A DNA stretch of 32,000 nucleotides, taken from contig CAYWWK010000001.1 of the NCBI GenBank assembly GCA_964462135.1, positions 203,913 through 235,912 of the forward strand. Reading direction: 5' to 3'. Position numbers and translations under genes: made by a program. This DNA comes from an uncultured Eggerthellaceae bacterium. Its GTDB lineage: Bacteria > Actinomycetota > Coriobacteriia > Coriobacteriales > Eggerthellaceae. Position 1 is the first letter of the stretch; the number at the start of each line of letters is the position of its first letter. Below are positions 1,317 to 29,953 of the stretch, one piece after another. The notes beneath the pieces were generated by a model, which saw only the letters and a list, made by a program, of their open reading frames with translations, searched no databases and had not been told where the DNA came from.

Positions 1317-1984
1317 AGGAGATCACCCAAGTCAAAGGACTCTGCGTCGATGTGGAGATACTGGTCATGGGGCCGCTGCAGAACAACGTGTACCTCATCT
1401 CTGACGGCGTTGGCACACTGGTGGTTGATCCAAGCTGTGATGCGCAGACCATCATGGCTGCCTTGGATGGCCGCAAGCTTGATGCCATCGTGCTGACGCA
1501 TGCCCACTGGGACCATGTCGGGGCGGCGGCAGAGCTGCGGCAGCTCACTGGAGCAACCGTCATTGCCAGCACCACGGATGCCCCGCTCATCGAGGAGCCT
1601 CGTGACACGGGCACGACGCGCGTGGCTGAGGCGTGTCCGGTGGATGTGCGCGTTGCCAATGGGGACACCGTGAATGTGGGCAACATGGCATGGAAGGTCA
1701 TGGAAACGCCAGGGCACACGAAAGGCTCCATCTGCCTGTTCATGATTCCCGCCTTTGGGAATCATGAAGGAGGCCTTCCGGTTCTCATTGCAGGAGACAC
1801 CCTGTTCAAGGGTTCTTTCGGCAGAACCGATTTCGAAGGAGGGTCCCTTGAGGCGATGGGGCAGTCCATGAAGCGGCTGGCTATGCTGCCCGATGACGTC
1901 GCCGTGCTTCCGGGGCACAACAGCCTTACCACCATCGGAGGCGAGCGGGCCACCTTCGCCCTCTTCGGTGACGAGCCGGAATAG
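1313..1984 (+). CDS. MBL-fold metallo-hydrolase (hydroxyacylglutathione-hydrolase-like)
   Basis: 223 aa with the beta-lactamase-fold metal motif [12 protein letters not shown] and a later PGHT.GS block. The ATG overlaps the relA stop (ATGA at 1313-1316), implying translational coupling. Confidence 0.85.
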
Positions 1985-2068
1985 GACAAGGGGGCAAATG
2001 AGTCACGGGGACGGTTCTCCTGACTCTATTATCCATTCGTGCTTCACTTCGCATCGCTCAAAAATGTC

Positions 2069-2099
2069 ATTGCCTGTGGTTTTGCATACCACAGGCAAT
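2069..2099. repeat. Perfect 12-bp-stem inverted repeat (attgcctgtggt / tttgcat / accacaggcaat)
   Basis: Read directly. It lies 85 nt downstream of the MBL stop and no U-tract follows. It could be a U-less terminator or a protein-binding palindrome. Confidence 0.5.
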
Positions 2100-2150
2100 C
2101 ATGTATTCAAGCGCTTCGCGCTGTGACGAGAGCATGAGTCTGTTTTTGTT

Positions 2151-2184
2151 GTAGCGTAAGACGTCACGCGTCAGCGTGCGTCTT
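2151..2184 (+). repeat. REP-like element: GTAGCG head plus hairpin (aagacg-t-cacgc / gtca / gcgtg-cgtctt)
   Basis: GTAGCGTAAG at 2151-2160, followed by an 11-bp stem with one bulge and a GTCA loop. Same architecture as the copies at 18732, 21736 and 29917. Confidence 0.6.
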
Positions 2185-2241
2185 GCCCCCGGACCGGAAA
2201 CATCCCCTCGGCCAAGGCAGGCCGCCATCCGGGCAAGGCAA

Positions 2242-2270
2242 GGTGCCGCTGCGCGGACACCTTACGCTAC
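2242..2270 (-). repeat. REP-like element and left copy of a direct repeat flanking the AT-rich island
   Basis: Sequence ggtgccgctgcgcggacaccttacgctac. Its reverse complement begins GTAGCGTAAGGTG, with stem aaggtg/cacctt. It nearly repeats 3864-3893, and it is also inverted relative to GTAGCGTAAG at 2151-2160. Confidence 0.6.
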
Positions 2271-2506
2271 GGGTCTCCGTTACATGCCATGAAGGTGCGA
2301 CGGCGTTCGCATCAGCCGCCGTACGTAACGTTGCAGATCAAGGGATGCATCCGCGTCCAAACGTCTTGGCACGATCTTTGCCAAGACTTCTCTTGTCAGA
2401 TAGCGGGATCGATCGTTTTCTCACGTTCCCTTCGCCATGATCTTCGATGTTAGAATCCATACCAGCAGCAAGTTCTTGCACCTCGGCAGCTTCATCCATG
2501 CGTGTT

Positions 2507-3667
2507 TTACCATTCAAGCCACGGTATAACGGATCCCTGAGAAGTCTCAAGTTGTTGGTTTCCGCCATAAACGATCTGTTTGCTCTTGGCATCTAAGTGT
2601 GCAAGCTCAGAGAAAACTTTCATAGATTTGAACCACTTGGAATTGAAAGTAGATCCTGATTTTGCTTCCACTGCAAAGGGTTCGAATTCGCTTCCGAATA
2701 TAAAGTCGACTTCATTTGTCGCAGTTTCATGCCAAAACCATGCATTCGGTCTTGCTCCCTGAGCCAGATTACGTTTTAAGTATTCCATCAGAACCAAATT
2801 CTCGAAAAGATTCCCCCTGAATGGGCTGACCTCAACATCGCGTATTGATTGAAATTGAAGCAGCGAGCAAGCCAAGCCAGTGTCAGTAAAGTATAGTTTC
2901 GGACGCTTTACTAATCGCTTGTTGAAGTTCTTTGAAAAAGGCCGCAGTAGATATACTATCGAGCTTGCCTCAAGGATAGAAATCCAGCGTTGAGTTGTTC
3001 GTCTATCGATTCCCGCTTCGGTAGAGAGGTTCTCAACGTCCAGTATCTCTGCAATTCGTCCTGCGCAAAGACGAAGGAAGCGCTGAAATGCGTCCAGCGA
3101 TCCAACGTTATTCTCACCGCGCACATCTCGCTCCAAGTAGGTTTGTATGTACGCCGGAAAGAAATCACCGGGTTCGATAGCGCTTTTATATATGCGAGGG
3201 TAGCCTCCCGTAAATAGCCATGAATCCAACGAATCGGGTAATTTGTCAACAGCAGAAAGCTCACGCTGCGATAGTGGATACAGGGTTAAAAGCGCGGTTC
3301 TACCGGCTAGGCTCTGCGTCACATTTCGCATCAGTAAGAAGTTTTGGGACCCGGATAGAATATACTGTCCGGGTTCATCGGTTTCATCCACTTTGGTTTG
3401 CAGATAATTGAATAGAGCAGGAACACGCTGAATCTCGTCGATGATTGAATGAGATTCATAGGTTGCCAGAAACCCTTCAGGATCATTGATGGCAAATTGA
3501 CGAATCGATGGGTTTTCCAGTGAAACGTATTGGTACTGGGGAAATGCATGGCGCGCAAGAGTTGATTTCCCAGATTGTCTGGGTCCTGTGATAGTGACAA
3601 TAGGAAACTTGTGGGATAGTTCCTCAAATTTCGGCTGCATTGCCCTAGGAATGATTTCAGTCTCCAT
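2507..3667 (-). CDS. AAA+ ATPase with a C-terminal DUF4143 / PD-(D/E)xK-like nuclease-fold domain (COG1373-type ATP-binding protein)
   Basis: 386 aa. Walker A is TGPRQSGKST (nt 3560-3586) and Walker B is SIIDEIQ. The C-terminal block NEVDFIF...FAVEAKSG (nt 2660-2713) matches a D...ExK nuclease-like motif. Spot counts of 60-nt lines give about 40-42 % G+C inside the gene against about 60 % in a neighbouring gene. Confidence 0.85.
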   Translation of the reverse strand: METEIIPRAMQPKFEELSHKFPIVTITGPRQSGKSTLARHAFPQYQYVSLENPSIRQFAINDPEGFLATYESHSIIDEIQRVPALFNYLQTKVDETDEPGQYILSGSQNFLLMRNVTQSLAGRTALLTLYPLSQRELSAVDKLPDSLDSWLFTGGYPRIYKSAIEPGDFFPAYIQTYLERDVRGENNVGSLDAFQRFLRLCAGRIAEILDVENLSTEAGIDRRTTQRWISILEASSIVYLLRPFSKNFNKRLVKRPKLYFTDTGLACSLLQFQSIRDVEVSPFRGNLFENLVLMEYLKRNLAQGARPNAWFWHETATNEVDFIFGSEFEPFAVEAKSGSTFNSKWFKSMKVFSELAHLDAKSKQIVYGGNQQLETSQGSVIPWLEW

Positions 3668-3676
3668 AATTTTGAA

Positions 3677-3705
3677 ATATTAGCATAAGAATCCCAATAT
3701 TTCAA
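3677..3705 (-). promoter_or_regulatory. Sigma-70-type promoter of the AAA+ ATPase gene, probably producing a leaderless mRNA
   Basis: On the minus strand: TTGAAA (3700-3705), a 17-nt spacer, TAATAT (3677-3682), then 9 nt to the ATG at 3667. There is no Shine-Dalgarno sequence. The -35 element and the -10/TSS region lie in the two arms of a perfect 10-bp inverted repeat (3672-3681 / 3696-3705). Confidence 0.6.
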
Positions 3706-3863
3706 AAAATGATACTCCCTTGTTTTATGCTGCTAGACGAAAAACCTCCTGAGATGAAAATGCATCAGGATGACGGTTTGGCCCTCCAAGTCAACTTTCC
3801 AAAGCCTTAGTGCTTCTGTCCAGAAGGATTCTTTGAATCCGGGGACCGTATCCGGGTGAGGCA

Positions 3864-3893
3864 GGTCGCCGCTGCGCGGACGGCTTACGCTAC
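3864..3893 (-). repeat. Right copy of the direct repeat flanking the AT-rich island (degenerate REP-like copy)
   Basis: Sequence ggtcgccgctgcgcggacggcttacgctac. Against 2242-2270 it shows one indel plus two substitutions. Confidence 0.6.
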
Positions 3894-3929
3894 AAAGGTG
3901 ATACAGGTCGCATCTGCGTGAGGCAAGCC

Positions 3930-4004
3930 GCAGGGGGCGCAGGGGACGCAGGGACGCAGGCTAAAGCCTGCGCTACGAGCCTGCGCTACGAGCCTGTGCT
4001 ACAC
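3930..4004. repeat. Composite (BIME-like) repeat cluster: GCAGG(G)(G)AC x3-4, a central hairpin, then a 13-bp tandem GCCTGCGCTACGA x3
   Basis: Sequence gcagggggc gcaggggac gcagggac gcaggc-taaa-gcctgc gctacga gcctgc gctacga gcctgt gctacac. The central hairpin cgcaggc/taaa/gcctgcg (3955-3972) is followed by CTAC, which is a GTAG head on the minus strand. Confidence 0.7.
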
Positions 4005-4071
4005 GTTACGGACGCATGCAACCCTCAGCTGGGTGGGCAACGGGATGCCGTTCGCAGCGTACCTTGATAGT

Positions 4072-4146
4072 GAACCCTCCTTATGCGTGAATGATATTTC
4101 CATTGCGTTAAAATAAGCGCGTCAATCAGCATTCGATGGAGGGTTC
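4072..4146 (+). promoter_or_regulatory. Possible SD-sequestering long-range helix in the pit leader
   Basis: GAACCCTCC (4072-4080) is the exact reverse complement of GGAGGGTTC (4138-4146). The latter holds the only SD-like sequence near the start of the Pit ORF. Confidence 0.35.
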
Positions 4147-5206
4147 CTTGGATCTCAGCTGGTCGTTCTTCTTCTCACAGCTTCTGAGCAACCCGCTTCT
4201 TCTCGTGGTTGCCATCCTGAACATCGGCGTCATCATCGTCAATGGTGCCACGGATGCTCCCAACGCCATCGCCACTGCGGTTTCCACGCGGGCCATGAAG
4301 CCCCGTCGGGCCATCATCATGGCAGCTATCTGCAATTTCGTGGGGCTTCTGGTCATCTCCGTCGTCTCTCCTGCCGTCGCTCAGACCATCTTCGGCATGG
4401 TCGATTTCGGAGGGGATTCCCATCAGGCGCTCGTGGCGCTCATGGCTGCCATGGTTGCCATCATCGTGTGGGGTGCCACGGCATGGTGGTTCGGCATTCC
4501 CACTTCGCAATCCCATTCCTTGATAGCGGGACTCACCGGAGCCGCCATCGCTCTGATGAATGGGGTGGATGCCATCAATTGGCATGAATGGATGAAGGTC
4601 ATCTACGGCATCCTGCTCTCCACGCTCATGGGATTCGCCTTTGGCTGGGTGAATTTCAAGATCATCAGGCGTGTTTTCAGGAATGCGGATCGTCAAAGTG
4701 CGAACAGGTTCTTCAAATGGGCGCAGATCCTGGCTGGTGCTGGCGTTGCGTTCATGCACGGTGCCCAGGACGGCCAGAAGTTCATGGGCATCTTCATCCT
4801 TGCCATCATGATGGCGGCGGGGCTGGGCATGAGCACCGATGCTTTGAGTTCCCTGCCCGTGTGGCTCATGCTGATCTGCGCGCTCACCATGGGTGTGGGC
4901 ACTGCCGTGGGGGGAGAGCGCATCATCAAGAGCGTGGGCGTTGACATGGTGAAGCTTGAAGCGTTCCAAGGATTCGCCGCCAGCCTTTCCACCTGCGTCA
5001 GCTTGGCGGTTGCCACCTTCGGTGGCCTGCCCGTTTCCACGACGCATACCAACACCACCGCCATCATGGGCGTGGGTGCGGCAAAGAATCCAAAAGGTGT
5101 CAAATGGTCCATCGCCATAGACATGGTGAAGACGTGGGTGCTAACGTTTCCGGGGTGTGGCCTTCTGGGCTTCGTTTGCGCGAAGCTGTTCTTGATCATC
5201 TTGTAG
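4136..5206 (+). CDS. pit: Inorganic phosphate transporter, PiT (PHO4) family
   Basis: 356 aa and polytopic. It carries the two PiT signature blocks NGATDAPNAIATAVSTRA and HGAQDGQKFMGI. The start is uncertain: the ATG at 4136 lacks an SD, while the in-frame TTG at 4148 lies 5 nt after GGAGG. Confidence 0.9.
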   Translation: MEGSLDLSWSFFFSQLLSNPLLLVVAILNIGVIIVNGATDAPNAIATAVSTRAMKPRRAIIMAAICNFVGLLVISVVSPAVAQTIFGMVDFGGDSHQALVALMAAMVAIIVWGATAWWFGIPTSQSHSLIAGLTGAAIALMNGVDAINWHEWMKVIYGILLSTLMGFAFGWVNFKIIRRVFRNADRQSANRFFKWAQILAGAGVAFMHGAQDGQKFMGIFILAIMMAAGLGMSTDALSSLPVWLMLICALTMGVGTAVGGERIIKSVGVDMVKLEAFQGFAASLSTCVSLAVATFGGLPVSTTHTNTTAIMGVGAAKNPKGVKWSIAIDMVKTWVLTFPGCGLLGFVCAKLFLIIL

Positions 5207-8633: not shown

Positions 8634-9679
8634 TCATGACCAAGACGATGTCAACTCATCCGGTCGTAGCGGTTGCGGGGGCAACCGGTGCGGTGGGACG
8701 TGAGTTCCTGAACGTGCTCCACCAGCTTGATTTCCCCGCCTCTGAGGTTCGCGCCTTGGCCAGTGCGCGGTCGGCGGGCAAGGAGGTGCCTTTCGAGGGG
8801 TGTGGCCAGGTGCCTGCTGGAACCCTGACGGTGCAGGAGATGACCCCTGAATCCTTCCAAGGGGTGGACATCGCGCTCTTTTCGGCAGGGGCCAGCGTCT
8901 CGAAGGCACTTCGCCAGGCTGTGGTGGATGCCGGAGCGGTCATGATTGACAATTCAAGCGCCTTCCGCATGGATGAGGATGTGCCGCTGGTAGTGCCTGA
9001 GGTCAATCCTGAGGATATCGCGTGGCATGAGGGTGTCATCGCCAATCCGAATTGCTCAACCATCCAGATGGTGGTCGCACTCAAGCCGCTCTATGACCTG
9101 TCACGCATCAAGCGCGTGGTGGTGTCGACGTATCAGGCGGCATCCGGTGCAGGCGCGGCTGCCATGGAAGAGCTCTACGACCAGACGCGCCAGTTCTTGG
9201 ATGGCGTTGCTGACGATGAGCTTTCCGTGGAGGCATTCCAGCATCGCATCGCATTCAACTGCATTCCGCATATCGATGTCTTCTTGGATGATGATTCCAC
9301 CAAGGAAGAATGGAAGATGGTGGCTGAGACGAAGAAGATCATGCATGACGATGACCTTGCCGTGGCCGCCACGTGCGTGCGCGTTCCCGTGCTGCGCTGT
9401 CATGGGGAATCCATCAATGTCGAGTTCGAAGAGGACGTCAGCGTTGACGCGGCGCGTCGCGCCCTTGAGGCAGCTCCCGGCATCACGATGATGGACGATC
9501 CAGCCAACAACGTCTATCCCATGCCGGGCCTTCTTGCCAATACTGACGGAACCTTCATTGGGCGTCTGCGCACTGACCCGTCCGTTCCTCACGGGCTTGC
9601 CTTCTGGGATGTGGCGGACCAGATCCGCAAGGGCGCGGCTTTGAATGCGGTCCAGATCGCCCAGTTGCTGTTGCCGTAA
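8630..9679 (+). CDS. asd: Aspartate-semialdehyde dehydrogenase
   Basis: 349 aa. It has the VAGATGAVG Rossmann motif, the active-site block NPNCSTI and the motif YQA.SGAG. The ATG overlaps the lysC stop (ATGA); an alternative ATG lies at 8636. Confidence 0.95.
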   Translation: MIMTKTMSTHPVVAVAGATGAVGREFLNVLHQLDFPASEVRALASARSAGKEVPFEGCGQVPAGTLTVQEMTPESFQGVDIALFSAGASVSKALRQAVVDAGAVMIDNSSAFRMDEDVPLVVPEVNPEDIAWHEGVIANPNCSTIQMVVALKPLYDLSRIKRVVVSTYQAASGAGAAAMEELYDQTRQFLDGVADDELSVEAFQHRIAFNCIPHIDVFLDDDSTKEEWKMVAETKKIMHDDDLAVAATCVRVPVLRCHGESINVEFEEDVSVDAARRALEAAPGITMMDDPANNVYPMPGLLANTDGTFIGRLRTDPSVPHGLAFWDVADQIRKGAALNAVQIAQLLLP

Positions 9680-16922: not shown

Positions 16923-18728
16923 ATGGAAGAGGCATTGAGGCAGATAGCAAAGCGCATTCGACGGGGTGAGGACATCTCTCCCAGACAGCTTGAGGCCATT
17001 CTGCGCAGGGAAAGCCGCAATCTGGCCGAGCCATCGAAGCGCCTGTCGAAGCGCGCCCTCATGGCCTATTACATGCAGCAGAGAGGCGCCCGCAGTGCGA
17101 TATGGAGATCGCTTGGACTGACCAAGGAACAAGACGATGCCATGATCGGCCTTCTGCGCGCCAAGCCCCGACGGACGGCATCGGGGGTGGCCACGGTCAC
17201 GGTGCTCACGAAGCCCTGGCCGTGTCGTGCTGATTGCCTGTACTGCCCCAACGACATCCGCATGCCGAAGAGCTACCTTTGGGACGAACCCGCCTGCCAG
17301 CGGGCTGAGAGGTGCCATTTCGACCCGTATCTGCAGGTTGGTGCGCGCCTCGGTATGCTTCACGGGATGGGGCACAACACCGACAAGGTGGAACTTATCG
17401 TGTTGGGTGGGACGTGGTTCGACTATCCCTATTCCTATCGCCTCTGGTTCGCAAGTCAGCTCTTCCGTGCGCTTGACGATTTCGGGACGGATGCCATGGA
17501 CGGCGAGATGGACCGTCGACGCCGAATCTACGAGAACGCTCCGCAGGCGTCAGAGGGTGCATTGCCTTCACTTCAGATGCGGGTGAACGAAGGTGAACTC
17601 ACCTACGCCGAGGCGCTCGGATGCCTGCCAACGCCCCCGAATGCTGACGATCTGGCTGATGTGGTCAGCGAGGACGCACTGATGTCATGGCAGAGGGCGA
17701 ACGAACGGGCGCAGGCGCGCTCCGTCGGTCTTGTCATAGAGACGCGCCCAGACACCATCACGGATGCGTCCCTTGTCGAATTGCGCACGTTTGGCGTGAC
17801 GAAGGTGCAGATGGGCATTCAGAGCCTGGACGCGGATATCCTTCGACGGAACTGTCGGTGTGGCAGTGTGGATCAAGTCGAAGAGGCGATGGGGCTGCTC
17901 CGGCTTTTCGGCTTCAAATCCCATGTGCATATGATGGCGAATCTGGCAGGATCGACGCCAGAGGCGGATGTGGAGCAGTATCGACGGTTGGTCGGTGATG
18001 AGCGCTACCTGCCTGATGAGATCAAGCTCTATCCGTGTGCCTTGGTGGAAAGCGCTCATCTGACGGATGCCTTCGGACGCGGAGAGTGGGAACCCTATTC
18101 CGAAGAGGCCTTGGTTGGATTGCTTGCTGCATGCGTCGAGGCGACCCCTGCCCATACCCGCATCTCCCGCATGATCCGAGACATCCCCTCCCAGGACATC
18201 CTCACCGGATGCCAGAAGACGAACCTTCGGCAGGTCGTTGAAGCCCACATTGCCTCGGAGGGTCAGCTCCCGTCCATCCAGGAGATGAGGATGCGCGAGG
18301 TGGCCACCCGTGATATGGATGCGGCCGTGCTGCATCTTGAAGAGGTGGCCTATGCCACCACCAACACCGACGAGGTGTTCTTGCAATGGGTGGACGAGGC
18401 GGGCACGTTGGCCGCGTTCCTGAGGCTTTCGCTGCCACGCATCCCCTCACCCGCAACCGGCGATGACGCCATGATCAGGGAGGTCCATGTCTATGGCAGG
18501 ACCTCTCGCATGCACGAGAGCAGGGAAGGGAATCAGCATCTGGGTCTGGGGAGGAAGCTCATAGAGCGAGCGTGCCATCTGGCGCGGGAGGATGGCCGGG
18601 AGGCGGTTTCCGTGATCAGCGCGGTGGGCACACGAGCCTATTATCGGCGCCTCGGATTCGAGGACGCAGGCCTGTACCAGAAATGCATCCTCGATGCTCC
18701 AGATCCGGATTGCATCGAGCTTCCGTAG
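16923..18728 (+). CDS. elp3: Elp3-family radical-SAM / GNAT acetyltransferase (bacterial Elongator Elp3 homologue)
   Basis: 601 aa. It has KPRRTASGVATVTVLTKPWPCRADCLYCPND (CX3CX2C at nt 17223-17246), then PKSYL..EPA..RA..FDPY.QV and KVELIVLGGTW. The C-terminal GNAT block is QHLGLGRKLIERA. Confidence 0.9.
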   Translation: MEEALRQIAKRIRRGEDISPRQLEAILRRESRNLAEPSKRLSKRALMAYYMQQRGARSAIWRSLGLTKEQDDAMIGLLRAKPRRTASGVATVTVLTKPWPCRADCLYCPNDIRMPKSYLWDEPACQRAERCHFDPYLQVGARLGMLHGMGHNTDKVELIVLGGTWFDYPYSYRLWFASQLFRALDDFGTDAMDGEMDRRRRIYENAPQASEGALPSLQMRVNEGELTYAEALGCLPTPPNADDLADVVSEDALMSWQRANERAQARSVGLVIETRPDTITDASLVELRTFGVTKVQMGIQSLDADILRRNCRCGSVDQVEEAMGLLRLFGFKSHVHMMANLAGSTPEADVEQYRRLVGDERYLPDEIKLYPCALVESAHLTDAFGRGEWEPYSEEALVGLLAACVEATPAHTRISRMIRDIPSQDILTGCQKTNLRQVVEAHIASEGQLPSIQEMRMREVATRDMDAAVLHLEEVAYATTNTDEVFLQWVDEAGTLAAFLRLSLPRIPSPATGDDAMIREVHVYGRTSRMHESREGNQHLGLGRKLIERACHLAREDGREAVSVISAVGTRAYYRRLGFEDAGLYQKCILDAPDPDCIELP

Positions 18729-18735
18729 CGTGTAG

Positions 18736-18758
18736 CGAAGGCTTCAGCCTTCGTTTTT
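18736..18758 (+). terminator. Intrinsic terminator of elp3, formed by a REP-like hairpin
   Basis: cgaaggc/ttca/gccttcg followed by TTTTT. It is preceded by tandem GTAGCG heads (18725-18730, overlapping the TAG stop, and 18732-18737). Confidence 0.7.
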
Positions 18759-18790
18759 CAGCAACATCCTGTCCCGTGGCGGGATGTTCG

Positions 18791-21735: not shown

Positions 21736-21770
21736 GTAGCGAAGGCTTCAGCCTTCGTCCCCCGAAGGGA
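21736..21770 (+). repeat. REP-like element with three arms (A-A'-A) between convergent genes
   Basis: GTAGCG, then cgaaggc/ttca/gccttcg, then tcccc-cgaaggg. The middle arm can pair with either flank. Positions 21736-21757 are identical to 18732-18753. Confidence 0.65.
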
Positions 21771-27322: not shown

Positions 27323-27366
27323 CTTCCGCCTTCGTTGGGGTGTTCGAAGACGGAAGCCTTCGCTAC
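27323..27366 (-). repeat. REP-like element (minus orientation) between pcrA and the pyrophosphatase gene
   Basis: cttccgccttcg/ttggggtgtt/cgaagacggaag forms a 12-bp stem with one mismatch. It is followed by ccttCGCTAC, whose reverse complement begins GTAGCGAAGGCTTC. Confidence 0.55.
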
Positions 27367-27401
27367 ACTGACAGGAGAAGGCAAGAGAAGAAGGAGCGAA
27401 G

Positions 27402-29885: not shown

Positions 29886-29900
29886 TGGCGGACCATCAGG
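29881..29900 (+). terminator. Hairpin overlapping the M20 peptidase stop codon
   Basis: cctgatgg/cgga/ccatcagg forms an 8-bp perfect stem. No U-tract follows. Confidence 0.35.
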
Positions 29901-29916
29901 TTCGAGGCACAGACTT

Positions 29917-29953
29917 GTAACGCAGGCTTCAGCCTGCGTCCCTTGTAAAGGGG
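29917..29953 (+). repeat. REP-like element (GTAACG variant) with two hairpins
   Basis: The sequence is gtaACGCAGGC/ttca/GCCTGCGT followed by ccctt/gta/aaggg. The stem and the following tccc match the reverse complement of 3951-3976 apart from the loop (ttca vs ttta) and the head (GTAACG vs GTAGCG). Confidence 0.6.

What the first reader, a model, noticed from the sequence alone, without database searches (positions are those of the whole stretch)
2242..3893. Single-gene AT-rich island: AAA+ ATPase fused to a PD-(D/E)xK-like DUF4143 domain, bracketed by about 29-bp direct repeats
Seen in sequence: the segment between ggtgccgctgcgcggacaccttacgctac (2242-2270) and ggtcgccgctgcgcggacggcttacgctac (3864-3893) holds one gene (2507-3667, minus). 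My spot counts of single 60-nt lines gave 40-42 % G+C inside it and 60 % in pit, so the composition is clearly foreign. The protein has Walker A/B motifs and a C-terminal EVDF...VEAK motif, which is the D...ExK signature of restriction-endonuclease-fold nucleases. It also brings its own strong AT-rich promoter. Established: COG1373-type AAA_14/DUF4143 proteins are widespread but functionally uncharacterised. Inference: a horizontally acquired, NTP-driven nuclease standing alone between repeat elements is a plausible single-gene defence or anti-mobile-element module. The insertion may have used the REP-like repeats as a target or recombination substrate.
Basis: partly seen in the sequence, partly recalled or inferred. 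Interest (0 to 1): 0.7.

Follow-up and report, generated by a model that had tools for sequence, protein, structure and literature searches.

The report
Foreign ATPase-nuclease gene among host repeats
A gut actinobacterium (family Eggerthellaceae) has picked up one foreign gene, complete with its own promoter, that encodes an ATP-driven DNA-cutting enzyme of a very common family already listed as a candidate anti-virus gene, so it is a clear but fairly ordinary case.

Summary
Gene 2507-3667 (-) encodes a 386-aa AAA_14 + DUF4143 protein. It has 45.5% GC and GC3 of 0.44, against 58-60% GC and GC3 of 0.72-0.81 in its neighbours. The bracketing direct repeat is real and longer than reported: 44 nt at 84% identity.

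Nineteen related Eggerthellaceae loci keep the relA-MBL-pit-phoU order and none has this gene, so it was acquired horizontally. The repeats are not element ends. They belong to a host REP-like family (hairpin + CGCTAC) that is scattered through the window.

The AlphaFold model (pLDDT 92) shows an AAA+ core, a lid, a winged helix and a PD-(D/E)xK domain. E289, D321, E334 and K336 sit at the canonical positions.

The family is not new. It matches PADLOC candidate PDC-S01 (E=3e-97), one of the most abundant "defence candidates". It remains unvalidated, and the one homologue tested gave no protection.

One feature appears to be undescribed. Close homologues share only the ORF plus a palindromic promoter (TTGAAAT...ATTTCAA), even in a 70%-GC host. 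Distant homologues carry different palindromes at the same position. This suggests self-repression through the winged helix.

Verdict: a new member of a known kind, of modest interest.

The parts
2507..3667 (-). Gene for a 386-aa AAA_14 + DUF4143 protein (PADLOC PDC-S01 family). It is intact and under purifying selection.
   Evidence: ORF; Pfam; PADLOC model PDLC04790 E=3.3e-97. Against a second-strain copy (L107) there are 15/1161 nt and 4 aa differences, dN/dS 0.11.
3119..3610 (-). AAA+ ATPase core and helical lid (residues 20-183). Motifs: Walker A G28-S35 (3563-3586), Walker B D77-E78 (3434-3439), sensor-1 N109, Arg-finger candidate R123, sensor-2 candidate R158.
   Evidence: These residues are invariant or nearly invariant in 57 homologues. 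AF2 model pLDDT 91.8. Foldseek hits to 2qen, RuvB, RFC, DnaA, ORC, Apaf-1 and Avs at E of 3e-6 to 5e-4. The assignment of sensor and finger roles is inferred from their position.
2888..3097 (-). Winged helix-turn-helix (residues 191-260): three helices and a two-strand wing. This is the presumed DNA-binding module.
   Evidence: AF2 secondary structure H191-203, H211-218, H222-234, E238-241, E257-260. The third helix varies between subfamilies that carry different upstream palindromes. DNA binding itself is inferred.
2510..2818 (-). PD-(D/E)xK nuclease domain (residues 284-386). Catalytic candidates are E289, D321, E334 and K336.
   Evidence: Alpha-beta-beta-beta-alpha-beta topology with the residues at canonical positions. 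E289, D321 and E334 are invariant and K336 is conserved in at least 90% of the 57 sequences; the E...D...ExK motif is also present in the 15 additional homologues aligned, which reach down to about 25% identity by tblastn. The best PDB fold matches are McrC, Cas4-like ACE1, Cdn1, Can2, Hjc, NucS and EcoRV, with prob up to 0.98-0.99 but E no better than 4.8e-3.
3670..3707 (-). Palindromic promoter and probable operator: TTTTGAAATATT-N14-AATATTTCAAAA. The -35 TTGAAA is at 3705-3700 and the extended -10 TGcTAATAT is at 3682-3677. The ATG lies 9 nt after the -10, so the mRNA is nearly leaderless.
   Evidence: I3; the half-site occurs only here in 32 kb. The block is conserved in homologue loci from hosts of 46-72% GC. 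Upstream palindromes are enriched across the family.
3708..3849 (-). AT-rich non-coding DNA upstream of the promoter block (30-48% GC). It is not shared with other homologue loci and is probably a remnant of the donor flank.
   Evidence: Fine GC profile. blastn homology to the closest homologue locus L108 stops at 3710. It is 98-99% identical in the second strain.
2271..2506 (.). Non-coding spacer between the stop codon and the left repeat. GC rises from 46% to 62% across it, and it varies between strains.
   Evidence: Indels of 33 nt and 23 nt and a diverged patch relative to L107. No Rfam match. The overlapping ORFs of 84-85 aa have no support.
2227..2270 (+). Left copy of the 44-nt direct repeat. 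It is a host REP-like unit: a hairpin (AAGGTG...CACCTT) followed by ACGCTAC.
3850..3893 (+). Right copy of the 44-nt direct repeat, a host REP-like unit, 84% identical to the left copy.
   Evidence: It is also present in second-strain contig L107.
2149..2186 (-). Third REP-like unit, inverted (hairpin AAGACG...CGTCTT + ACGCTAC). With 2227-2270 it forms an inverted pair.
   Evidence: (I2, I4).
3897..4003 (+). The rest of the REP-like array to the right of the island. It holds partial copies (3897-3931), a hairpin + GCGCTAC unit (3958-3977), and a 13-nt unit AGCCTGCGCTACG repeated three times (3965-4003).
   Evidence: D2-D4; I1 pairs it with 29897-29943.
2069..2099 (-). Terminator-like hairpin (12-bp stem followed by TTTTT) on the gene's strand, about 400 nt downstream of the stop. 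It may be the 3' end of the transcript.
   Evidence: The number of such sites in the region is no higher than in shuffles, so this is weak evidence.

Best explanation
This is a horizontally acquired, self-contained single-gene cassette: a palindromic promoter plus an ORF, about 1.2 kb (2507-3710). It lies inside a cluster of host REP-like repeats in the MBL-pit intergenic region of one Eggerthellaceae lineage.

The protein belongs to the AAA_14/DUF4143 family (COG1373, PADLOC candidate PDC-S01). Its domains run in the order AAA+ ATPase core, lid, winged helix, PD-(D/E)xK nuclease.

Most likely mechanism (inferred, not shown): the protein is a nucleotide-switch nuclease. ATP binding or hydrolysis in an oligomer controls DNA engagement through the winged helix and cleavage by the E289/D321/E334/K336 site. 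It is directed at foreign or aberrant DNA, which would make it a defence or anti-mobile-element function. At rest the protein probably binds the palindrome that spans its own -35 to +1 region and so represses itself. That would let a potentially toxic nuclease establish in new hosts.

The 44-nt direct repeats are two neighbouring host REP units that bracket the insertion point. They are not ends of the element.
For: Shown:
- Domain content.
- All catalytic motifs are invariant or nearly invariant in 57 homologues and are retained in distant ones.
- Confident AF2 models with the four-domain order.
- AAA+ fold matches and PD-(D/E)xK fold matches.
- The gene is absent from the same gap in 19 syntenic Eggerthellaceae loci.
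- GC3 is 0.44 against 0.72-0.81.
- A second strain carries the same arrangement, with dN/dS of 0.11.
- Homology to other members covers only the promoter block and the ORF.
- The promoter palindrome is conserved in hosts of 46-72% GC.
- Upstream palindromes are enriched against control genes in two independent locus sets (p=3e-7; p=1.2e-5).
- The REP family is dispersed: 10 of 16 CGCTAC sites have an adjoining hairpin, against 15 of 212 for control hexamers.
- The family occurs on 380 plasmids, often beside toxin-antitoxin, transposase, restriction, CRISPR or Qat genes.

From the literature:
- PDC-S01 was proposed as a defence candidate because members are embedded in BREX, DISARM or type I RM loci (10.1101/2024.01.29.577857).
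- DUF4143 is classed as PD-(D/E)xK (PMC3424549).
- A Thermus homologue was induced 6.6-fold when plasmid DNA was present (PMC4406477).
Against: - No member of the family has a demonstrated activity or phenotype.
- The one PDC-S01 gene that has been tested gave no protection against T4, T5 or T7 in E. coli (10.1101/2024.09.26.614923).
- This copy sits among housekeeping genes, not in a defence island, as do its closest relatives.
- Fold matches for the nuclease domain are weak in E-value (best 4.8e-3).
- No relative has a solved structure detectable by sequence.
- Self-repression rests only on the position and conservation of the palindrome. About a third to a half of homologue loci show no strong palindrome.
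- The exact insertion boundaries and an empty site in the same species were not found.
Confidence: 0.6

Rival explanations
1. The cassette is a selfish, addictive or otherwise self-propagating gene. It persists and spreads for its own benefit, for example through post-segregational toxicity or homing-like gene conversion driven by its nuclease, and it gives the host no protection.
For: - Copy numbers are extreme. There are 10,358 loci in 6,530 rumen genomes (PMC13356809), 9,986 in 7,747 archaeal genomes (PMC12988326), and about 19,900 clusters at 50% identity.
- Tandem paralogues occur, each with its own palindrome.
- Insertions occur inside housekeeping or metabolic contexts, including an arabinose operon.
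- The conserved unit is just promoter plus ORF.
- COG1373 is listed among genes shared between genera in gut microbiota (PMC10782964).
- One phage test was negative (10.1101/2024.09.26.614923).
Against: - The element has no terminal inverted repeats, no target-site duplication and no recombinase.
- No mobility mechanism is known for the family.
- Purifying selection (dN/dS 0.11) and retention in two diverged strains fit a host benefit equally well.
- Embedding in BREX and RM loci (10.1101/2024.01.29.577857) and adjacency to Qat, restriction and CRISPR genes point towards defence.
Confidence: 0.2
2. The gene is an inert passenger. It is a recently acquired foreign gene that is poorly expressed or non-functional in this host and is on its way to decay.
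For: - The ancestral start codon is ATC here instead of ATG or GTG.
- Composition is strongly foreign, with no amelioration.
- The downstream flank is decaying through indels.
Against: - The ORF is intact, with every invariant residue kept.
- An in-frame ATG four codons upstream sits 9 nt after a near-consensus extended -10.
- dN/dS is 0.11 between two strains while the flanks diverge faster.
Confidence: 0.1
3. The 44-nt direct repeats are attachment sites or a target-site duplication made by a site-specific insertion of the island. In that case the repeat-to-repeat segment would be the mobile unit.
For: - The two copies are in direct orientation and bracket the AT-rich segment.
- They resemble each other more than they resemble other members of the REP-like family.
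- The same arrangement occurs in a second strain.
Against: - Identity is only 84% even though the gene is compositionally unameliorated.
- The motif family is dispersed at 18725-18789, 21736, 27345 and 29917 and forms an array to the right of the island.
- A third, inverted copy lies outside the bracket.
- There is no integrase or tRNA in 32 kb.
- Homologue loci in other genomes have no flanking repeats.
Confidence: 0.1

Closest known systems
PADLOC phage-defence candidate PDC-S01 (AAA_14 + DUF4143; COG1373 'predicted AAA+ ATPase')
   Same: The protein matches model PDLC04790 over its full length (E=3.3e-97). It has the same two Pfam domains, the same single-gene architecture and the same patchy, HGT-prone distribution.
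   Different: Nothing essential differs; it is a member of this family. This copy is not embedded in or next to any defence system. The family itself has no demonstrated function, and one tested member was negative.
McrBC (type IV restriction: AAA+ McrB plus PD-(D/E)xK McrC)
   Same: An NTP-driven AAA+ motor is coupled to a PD-(D/E)xK nuclease. McrC is the best PDB fold match of the C-terminal domain (6hz4_M, prob 0.98).
   Different: McrBC is two proteins and uses GTP, and its DNA-reading domain sits at the McrB N-terminus. Here there is one chain with a winged helix between ATPase and nuclease. The ATPase resembles ORC, DnaA, RuvB and STAND proteins rather than McrB.
STAND/Avs-type NTPase-nuclease defence proteins, and ORC/Cdc6/DnaA initiators
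   Same: The module order is nucleotide-binding domain, helical lid, winged helix. Foldseek matches Apaf-1, EfAvs5, Avs4, DnaA and ORC. Some Avs proteins also carry a PD-(D/E)xK effector.
   Different: There is no C-terminal repeat sensor (TPR or similar). The protein is much smaller (386 aa) and the nuclease is C-terminal. No link to replication origins was found.
Archaeal Walker-type ATPase PABY2304 (PDB 2qen; Pfam Arch_ATPase)
   Same: It is the best whole-protein structural match (E=3.3e-6, TM 0.45-0.49 over 368 aligned columns). It also has an AAA+ core followed by helical and winged-helix domains.
   Different: Sequence identity is only 13%. 2qen was not found by sequence search. Whether 2qen has an equivalent nuclease domain was not examined.
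REP (repetitive extragenic palindromic) elements and their arrays (BIME-like clusters)
   Same: These are short imperfect palindromes with a conserved tail (CGCTAC). They are dispersed in both orientations and clustered in arrays. Whether they lie in intergenic DNA was not checked site by site.
   Different: The sequence family is specific to this lineage and was not seen in the sister-species loci. Genome-wide copy number and an associated RAYT transposase could not be checked.
Controller (C-protein) operators of restriction-modification systems and autoregulated toxin-antitoxin promoters
   Same: A palindrome overlaps the promoter of a potentially toxic mobile gene and travels with it between hosts.
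   Different: Here the presumed repressor would be the effector protein itself, acting through its internal winged helix. Binding has not been shown.

Membership tests
Pfam AAA_14 (PF13173) | HMM score above the gathering cut-off | tested here: met
   98.0 bits against a cut-off of 27; residues 21-137.
Pfam DUF4143 (PF13635) | HMM score above the gathering cut-off | tested here: met
   134.3 bits against a cut-off of 28.1; residues 179-338 cover the whole 160-position profile.
PADLOC PDC-S01 | Full-length match to a PDC-S01 HMM, in a single-gene system | tested here: met
   PDLC04790 E=3.3e-97, 323.9 bits, residues 1-377. Six further PDC-S01 models also hit. There is no partner gene.
PADLOC PDC-S01 | Protection against phage or other mobile DNA | not testable with these tools
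   The family is a candidate only. One homologue was negative against T4, T5 and T7 (10.1101/2024.09.26.614923). Validation was described as pending (PMC12988326).
AAA+ ATPases | Walker A GxxxxGK[ST], Walker B hhhhDE, sensor-1 polar residue, arginine finger, sensor-2 arginine in the lid | tested here: met
   G28-K34-S35, D77-E78, N109, R123 and R158 are invariant or at least 90% conserved in 57 sequences. Their placement on beta1, beta3, beta4, before beta5 and in the lid comes from the AF2 model. The functional roles are inferred.
AAA+ ATPases | AAA+ alpha/beta core plus helical lid fold | tested here: met
   Foldseek matches 2qen, RuvB, RFC, DnaA, ORC and Apaf-1 at E of 3e-6 to 4e-4 with prob 0.97-1.0.
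PD-(D/E)xK nuclease superfamily | Conserved acidic residue in helix 1, D at the start of strand 2, (D/E)xK in strand 3 | tested here: met
   E289 lies in H284-302, D321 in E319-325, and E334/K336 in E330-336. E289, D321 and E334 are invariant and K336 is at least 90% conserved in 57 sequences, and the motif is kept in homologues that reach down to about 25% identity by tblastn.
PD-(D/E)xK nuclease superfamily | Alpha-beta-beta-beta-alpha-beta core fold similar to solved nucleases | tested here: inconclusive
STAND / Avs defence NTPases | C-terminal repeat or sensor domain after the NBD-lid-winged-helix module | tested here: not met
   The winged helix is followed directly by the nuclease domain and the protein ends at residue 386. 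It therefore resembles this family but is not a member.
McrBC-type restriction | Separate McrB (GTPase with N-terminal DNA reader) and McrC subunits | tested here: not met
   There is a single polypeptide with no adjacent partner gene. The ATPase matches ORC, RuvB and STAND proteins rather than McrB.
Classical integrative genomic island | Deviant composition and absence from close relatives | tested here: met
   composition; absent from 19 syntenic loci.
Classical integrative genomic island | Integrase or recombinase, tRNA target, identical att repeats | tested here: not met
   There is no tRNA in 32 kb and no recombinase among the ORFs. The repeats are only 84% identical and belong to a dispersed family.
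REP-like elements | Short palindrome with a conserved tail, many dispersed copies in both orientations | tested here: met
   Ten of 16 CGCTAC sites have an adjoining hairpin, against 15 of 212 for eight control hexamers. Copies lie at 2151, 2265, 3888, 3971, 3984, 18730, 18789, 21741, 27361 and in variant form at 29917. Stem changes include compensatory ones.
REP-like elements | Genome-wide abundance and an associated RAYT transposase | not testable with these tools
   Only 32 kb of this genome is available.
Autoregulated (operator-controlled) mobile gene | A palindrome overlapping the promoter that travels with the gene | tested here: met
   Enrichment against control genes is p=3e-7 and p=1.2e-5.
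Autoregulated (operator-controlled) mobile gene | The protein binds the palindrome and represses transcription | not testable with these tools
   This needs EMSA or footprinting and reporter assays.

The most novel reading that the evidence does not exclude
The promoter-palindrome-plus-ORF cassette is an autonomous mobile unit of a new kind. It would be a single gene whose AAA+ / winged-helix / nuclease product both represses itself at a co-evolving palindrome and promotes its own spread or retention. The route could be homing-like cleavage of empty sites or hairpin/REP clusters, or post-segregational killing. On this reading, the hugely abundant 'PDC-S01 defence candidate' is at least in part a selfish element and not an immune gene.
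Probability: 0.1. Interest if true: 0.75.

Novelty: new member of a known kind. Interest (0 to 1): 0.3.

Why it matters
In itself the locus is a textbook single-gene horizontal acquisition of a family that defence-annotation tools already flag. It adds one more member and a clean example of insertion into a host REP cluster.

Its wider value is as an entry point to a very large uncharacterised family. There are tens of thousands of PDC-S01 calls in recent surveys, and the family is often counted as "immunity" without any functional evidence.

Two observations give concrete, cheap experiments that could show what the family does and whether counting it as defence is justified:
- The conserved unit is only a palindromic promoter plus the ORF.
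- Different subfamilies carry different palindromes at the same position.

The experiments are operator binding by the winged helix, de-repression on challenge, and ATPase and nuclease point mutants.

Tried and rejected
1. Exact-protein look-ups to find an empty site in the same species. The 386-aa product and the 377-aa NCBI version are not on record. The exact Pit and MBL proteins occur only on short Logan contigs that break at window positions 3958 and about 2073, so they say nothing about presence or absence of the island.

2. DNA comparison of the intergenic flanks with sister species. Only the coding ends align, so exact insertion boundaries could not be set.

3. Metagenome scan with the protein: only 3 loci. 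First viral scan: nothing. Profile viral scan: 21 loci, used only as a second test set for the palindrome.

4. NCBIfam, PHROGs and PDB sequence searches: no hits.

5. Rfam on 1900-4300: nothing.

7. Terminal inverted repeats or flanking direct repeats as a feature of the family: none in four other loci.

8. The small ORFs at 2183-2440 (+) and 2338-2592 (-): rejected as coding, because the region carries 33-nt and 23-nt indels and a scrambled patch between strains.

9. Vertical inheritance: rejected by synteny.

10. Literature searches for PF13635, PF13173 and AAA_14 returned mostly unrelated papers. No mechanistic study of the family was found.
Full report
OBSERVATION

The window holds a 386-aa ORF at 2507-3667 on the minus strand. 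It matches Pfam AAA_14 (residues 21-137, 98 bits) and DUF4143 (residues 179-338, 134 bits), both far above their curated cut-offs.

The gene has 45.5% GC and GC3 of 0.44. The seven neighbouring genes have 52-61% GC and GC3 of 0.72-0.81. Windows of 300 nt inside the gene read 41-50% GC. No other 1-kb window in the 32 kb falls below 53.6%.

2227-2270 and 3850-3893 are 44 nt at 84% identity. The core CTTACGCTAC occurs three times against 0.47 expected, and 0 of 100 shuffles reach three. The third copy is inverted, at 2151-2160.

WHOSE DNA, AND IS THE GENE FOREIGN

The neighbouring Pit protein finds its closest relatives in Eggerthellaceae (Coriobacteriia). These are two uncultured MAGs at 95% and 94% amino-acid identity, followed by Adlercreutzia, Paraeggerthella, Gordonibacter, Raoultibacter and Slackia.

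In 19 such loci the order relA - MBL-fold hydrolase - pit - phoU_div is kept wherever the contig reaches. No AAA_14/DUF4143 homologue lies between MBL and pit in any of them. In most of these loci, including the two closest species, the gap is roughly 50-300 bp, against 2,151 bp here. The gene is an insertion in this lineage.

There is no tRNA in the window. All 20 further window ORFs scanned are housekeeping-type or have no Pfam match. They include aspartokinase, ASD, alanine symporter, radical SAM enzymes, BacA, TatD, DAHP synthase and PcrA/UvrD. This is not a defence island and no recombinase is present.

A SECOND STRAIN

A 1,744-bp Logan contig from another sample (L107) carries the same arrangement: right REP array, gene, left REP.

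The two gene copies differ at 15 of 1,161 nt and 4 residues, giving dN/dS of 0.11. The upstream non-coding DNA is 98-99% identical. The 236 bp between the stop codon and the left repeat carries 33-nt and 23-nt indels and a scrambled patch.

So the insertion predates the split of these strains. The ORF is under purifying selection, and the downstream spacer is non-coding DNA in decay.

THE REPEATS

The bracketing repeats belong to the host. Each is a hairpin followed by (A/G)CGCTAC. The stems differ between copies, partly through compensatory changes: AAGGTG/CACCTT and AAGACG/CGTCTT.

The same design recurs at 3958-4003, 18725-18789, 21736, 27345-27368 and 29897-29943. Ten of 16 CGCTAC sites in the window have an adjoining hairpin, against 15 of 212 sites for eight control hexamers. 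The sister-species loci show no such family, which is usual for REP-type elements.

To the right of the island the units form an array (3850-4003). To the left there is an inverted pair (2149-2186 and 2227-2270). Four other loci that carry close homologues have no flanking direct repeats.

The simplest reading is that foreign DNA landed between two neighbouring units of a REP cluster. A REP x REP recombination that brought the cassette in is also possible. The 84% identity, the dispersed family and the absence of an integrase all argue against att sites or a target-site duplication. The exact boundaries lie somewhere in 2271-2340 and 3835-3849, judged from the fine GC profile. They could not be fixed because no same-species empty site was found.

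THE PROTEIN

An alignment of 57 homologues at 50-74% identity shows the following residues to be invariant or conserved in at least 90% of sequences:
- G28, R30, Q31, G33, K34 and S35 (Walker A)
- D77-E78 (Walker B)
- N109, R123 and R158
- a KRxxKxPKLYFxDTGL stretch
- E289, D321, E334 and K336

AlphaFold2 gives a confident model (pLDDT 91.8, pTM 0.91) with four parts:
- an AAA+ alpha/beta core (residues 23-128)
- a helical lid (134-183)
- a winged helix (191-260)
- an alpha-beta-beta-beta-alpha-beta domain (284-382)

In the last domain E289 lies in the first helix, D321 at the second strand, and E334-x-K336 in the third strand. These are the canonical PD-(D/E)xK positions.

Foldseek against the PDB matches the whole model to the archaeal Walker ATPase 2qen, RuvB, RFC, DnaA, ORC, Apaf-1 and Avs proteins at E of 3e-6 to 5e-4. 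The C-terminal domain modelled alone (pLDDT 91.3) matches almost exclusively PD-(D/E)xK nucleases: McrC, a Cas4-like protein, Cdn1, Can2, Hjc, NucS and EcoRV. Probabilities reach 0.98-0.99, but no E-value is below 1e-3. I therefore call the fold test consistent but formally inconclusive. The literature had already placed DUF4143 in this superfamily (PMC3424549).

No relative detectable by sequence has a solved structure.

WHAT IS KNOWN ABOUT THE FAMILY

The protein matches PADLOC model PDLC04790 of PDC-S01 at E=3.3e-97 over residues 1-377.

PDC systems were proposed by "guilt by embedding" in BREX, DISARM and type I RM loci and have not been tested (10.1101/2024.01.29.577857).

Later surveys report the following:
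[quoted passage not shown] It is described as an ATPase fused to a PD-(D/E)xK domain, with validation pending (PMC12988326).
- It is the most frequent single locus type in 6,530 rumen genomes, at 10,358 loci (PMC13356809).
- One representative expressed in E. coli B gave no protection against T4, T5 or T7 (10.1101/2024.09.26.614923).
- A Thermus homologue was induced 6.6-fold when plasmid DNA was present (PMC4406477).
- COG1373 is listed among genes shared between genera in gut microbiota (PMC10782964).

My own searches agree that the family is huge and mobile:
- 19,866 clusters at 50% identity reach E of 1e-3 or better.
- 380 of 72,556 plasmids carry a homologue, often beside RelE/ParE, HipA, transposases, integrases, CRISPR-Cas I-E, or a restriction gene followed by Qat. 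Others lie inside an arabinose operon or a conjugation region.
- The family is rare in phage collections: 10 unverified contigs, 21 IMG/VR loci and no PHROG.

The nearest relatives of this copy (66-74% identity) include Parvibacter caecicola, another member of Eggerthellaceae, and MAGs of 46-72% GC. Each sits at a different housekeeping locus. The direct donor has not been sampled.

THE CASSETTE AND ITS PALINDROME (apparently new)

DNA homology between this locus and the closest homologue loci starts at about 3710 and ends at the stop codon. The shared unit is therefore only a promoter block plus the ORF.

The block reads TTTTTTGAAAT-N-TGCTAATATTTCAAAA. It contains a -35 TTGAAA, a 17-nt spacer and an extended -10 TGcTAATAT. 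The whole block is a palindrome, with arms of 12-22 nt. It is conserved in five lineages, including a host of about 70% GC in which it stands out sharply. Its half-site occurs nowhere else in the 32 kb.

More distant homologues carry different palindromes at the same place. Examples are 18-21-nt arms in two metagenome contigs and in a Moraxella plasmid, two tandem 16-bp palindromes in a Collinsella plasmid, and a TTTATGTAATTTTG...CAAAATTGCATAAA type in the two Cytophagales (Bacteroidota) plasmids and in several uncultured phage/viral-collection contigs. Two tandem paralogues in one contig each have their own palindrome.

Upstream palindrome scores exceed those of control genes from the same loci in two independent sets:
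- Set 1: median 9.5 against 6, Mann-Whitney p=3e-7, 22 targets against 103 controls.
- Set 2: median 8 against 6, p=1.2e-5, 20 targets against 72 controls.

Not every member has a palindrome, and the targets are not phylogenetically independent. The third helix of the winged helix differs between palindrome types, for example RRTxxRW against VSTxxAW. This is suggestive only.

I infer that the protein represses its own promoter through the winged helix. That arrangement suits a potentially toxic nuclease entering new hosts. I found no description of this in the papers searched.

START CODON

The homologues start at the codon that aligns with window residue I5. That codon is ATC here, where the others have ATG or GTG. 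An in-frame ATG four codons upstream (3667), created inside the former Shine-Dalgarno region, lies 9 nt after the -10. The mRNA would then be leaderless or nearly so, which is common in Actinomycetota (from general knowledge).

The public annotation starts at M10 (P0001, 377 aa). That start removes the nearly invariant R8.

MECHANISM AND RIVALS

Best-supported mechanism: an ATP-switch nuclease that engages DNA through the winged helix and cuts with the PD-(D/E)xK site. It would act in conflicts with foreign DNA and be self-repressed at its palindromic promoter. The architecture and the horizontal acquisition are shown. The activity, target, trigger and repression are inferred.

The main rival is a selfish or addictive element. 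Its support is the extreme copy number, the tandem paralogues, the insertions into housekeeping operons, the minimal conserved unit and the negative phage test. Against it, no mobility machinery or terminal repeats exist.

An inert passenger is unlikely, given the intact motifs and dN/dS of 0.11. The att-site or TSD reading of the repeats is unlikely for the reasons given above.

VERDICT

The gene is, however, a new member of a known and already catalogued candidate-defence family, and its function remains unproven. The locus is ordinary. The palindromic promoter cassette is the one lead worth following.

Noticed in passing
window 3670-3707; L083 782-825 and 2133-2168; L088 4940-4987; L108 91-132; L090, L091, L093, L102, L105 just upstream of the homologue genes: AAA_14/DUF4143 genes are often preceded by a long palindrome (arms of 9-22 nt) that overlaps the promoter. 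Close homologues share one palindrome type. Distant homologues have different palindromes at the same position. The enrichment over control genes held in two independent locus sets.
   Followed up: partly
window 18725-18789, 21736-21758, 27345-27368, 29897-29943, 8666-8671, 3958-4003: A dispersed REP-like family (a short GC-rich hairpin followed by CGCTAC, in both orientations) is present in this genome. It is not evident in the sister-species loci. An associated RAYT transposase and the genome-wide copy number could not be checked.
   Followed up: partly
window 3640-3667 (-): The codon that aligns with the homologues' ATG or GTG start is ATC here. An in-frame ATG four codons upstream lies 9 nt after the -10, which implies a nearly leaderless mRNA. 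The public annotation (P0001, 377 aa) starts at M10 and so drops the nearly invariant R8.
   Followed up: partly
window 2069-2099 (-), within a 31-nt-arm imperfect palindrome at 2050-2118: There is a strong terminator-like hairpin with a T-run on the minus strand, about 400 nt beyond the gene's stop and outside the left repeats. The ancestral arrangement would have had no minus-strand gene to terminate here. It may mark the true 3' end of the transcript or of the acquired DNA.
   Followed up: no
L010 6550-7752, L011, L012 5151-7561: In Paraeggerthella and Gordonibacter the same MBL-pit gap is 1.5-3.5 kb. In L010 and L012 (listed) it holds a multi-pass membrane-protein ORF of about 380-400 aa on the minus strand; L011 was not listed. 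L012 has an extra 328-aa ORF. The gap therefore seems to vary repeatedly within the family. None of these ORFs was analysed.
   Followed up: no
L083 840-1991 and 2186-3421: Two AAA_14/DUF4143 paralogues (383 and 411 aa) sit in tandem in a contig of about 72% GC. Each has its own AT-rich palindrome upstream.
   Followed up: partly
L096 3232-6691 (Emticicia plasmid pEMTOL02): A homologue lies between the L-ribulose-5-phosphate 4-epimerase gene and araA. It is inserted inside an arabinose-utilisation gene cluster.
   Followed up: no
L101 4007-9146 (Sulfitobacter plasmid): A homologue overlaps by 4 bp with a downstream gene annotated as a restriction endonuclease, and qatABC follows. This may be a two-gene variant sitting in a real defence island.
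   Followed up: no
window 3965-4003: A 13-nt unit, AGCCTGCGCTACG, is repeated three times in tandem (the third copy is 85% identical). It appears to be a local expansion of the REP tail motif.
   Followed up: no
L088 4845-4916 (Parvibacter-type locus): A palindrome with 34-nt arms at 97% complementarity lies immediately upstream of the homologue's promoter block. Like the REP cluster here, it puts a strong hairpin next to the cassette. The sample is too small to judge whether this is a pattern.
   Followed up: no
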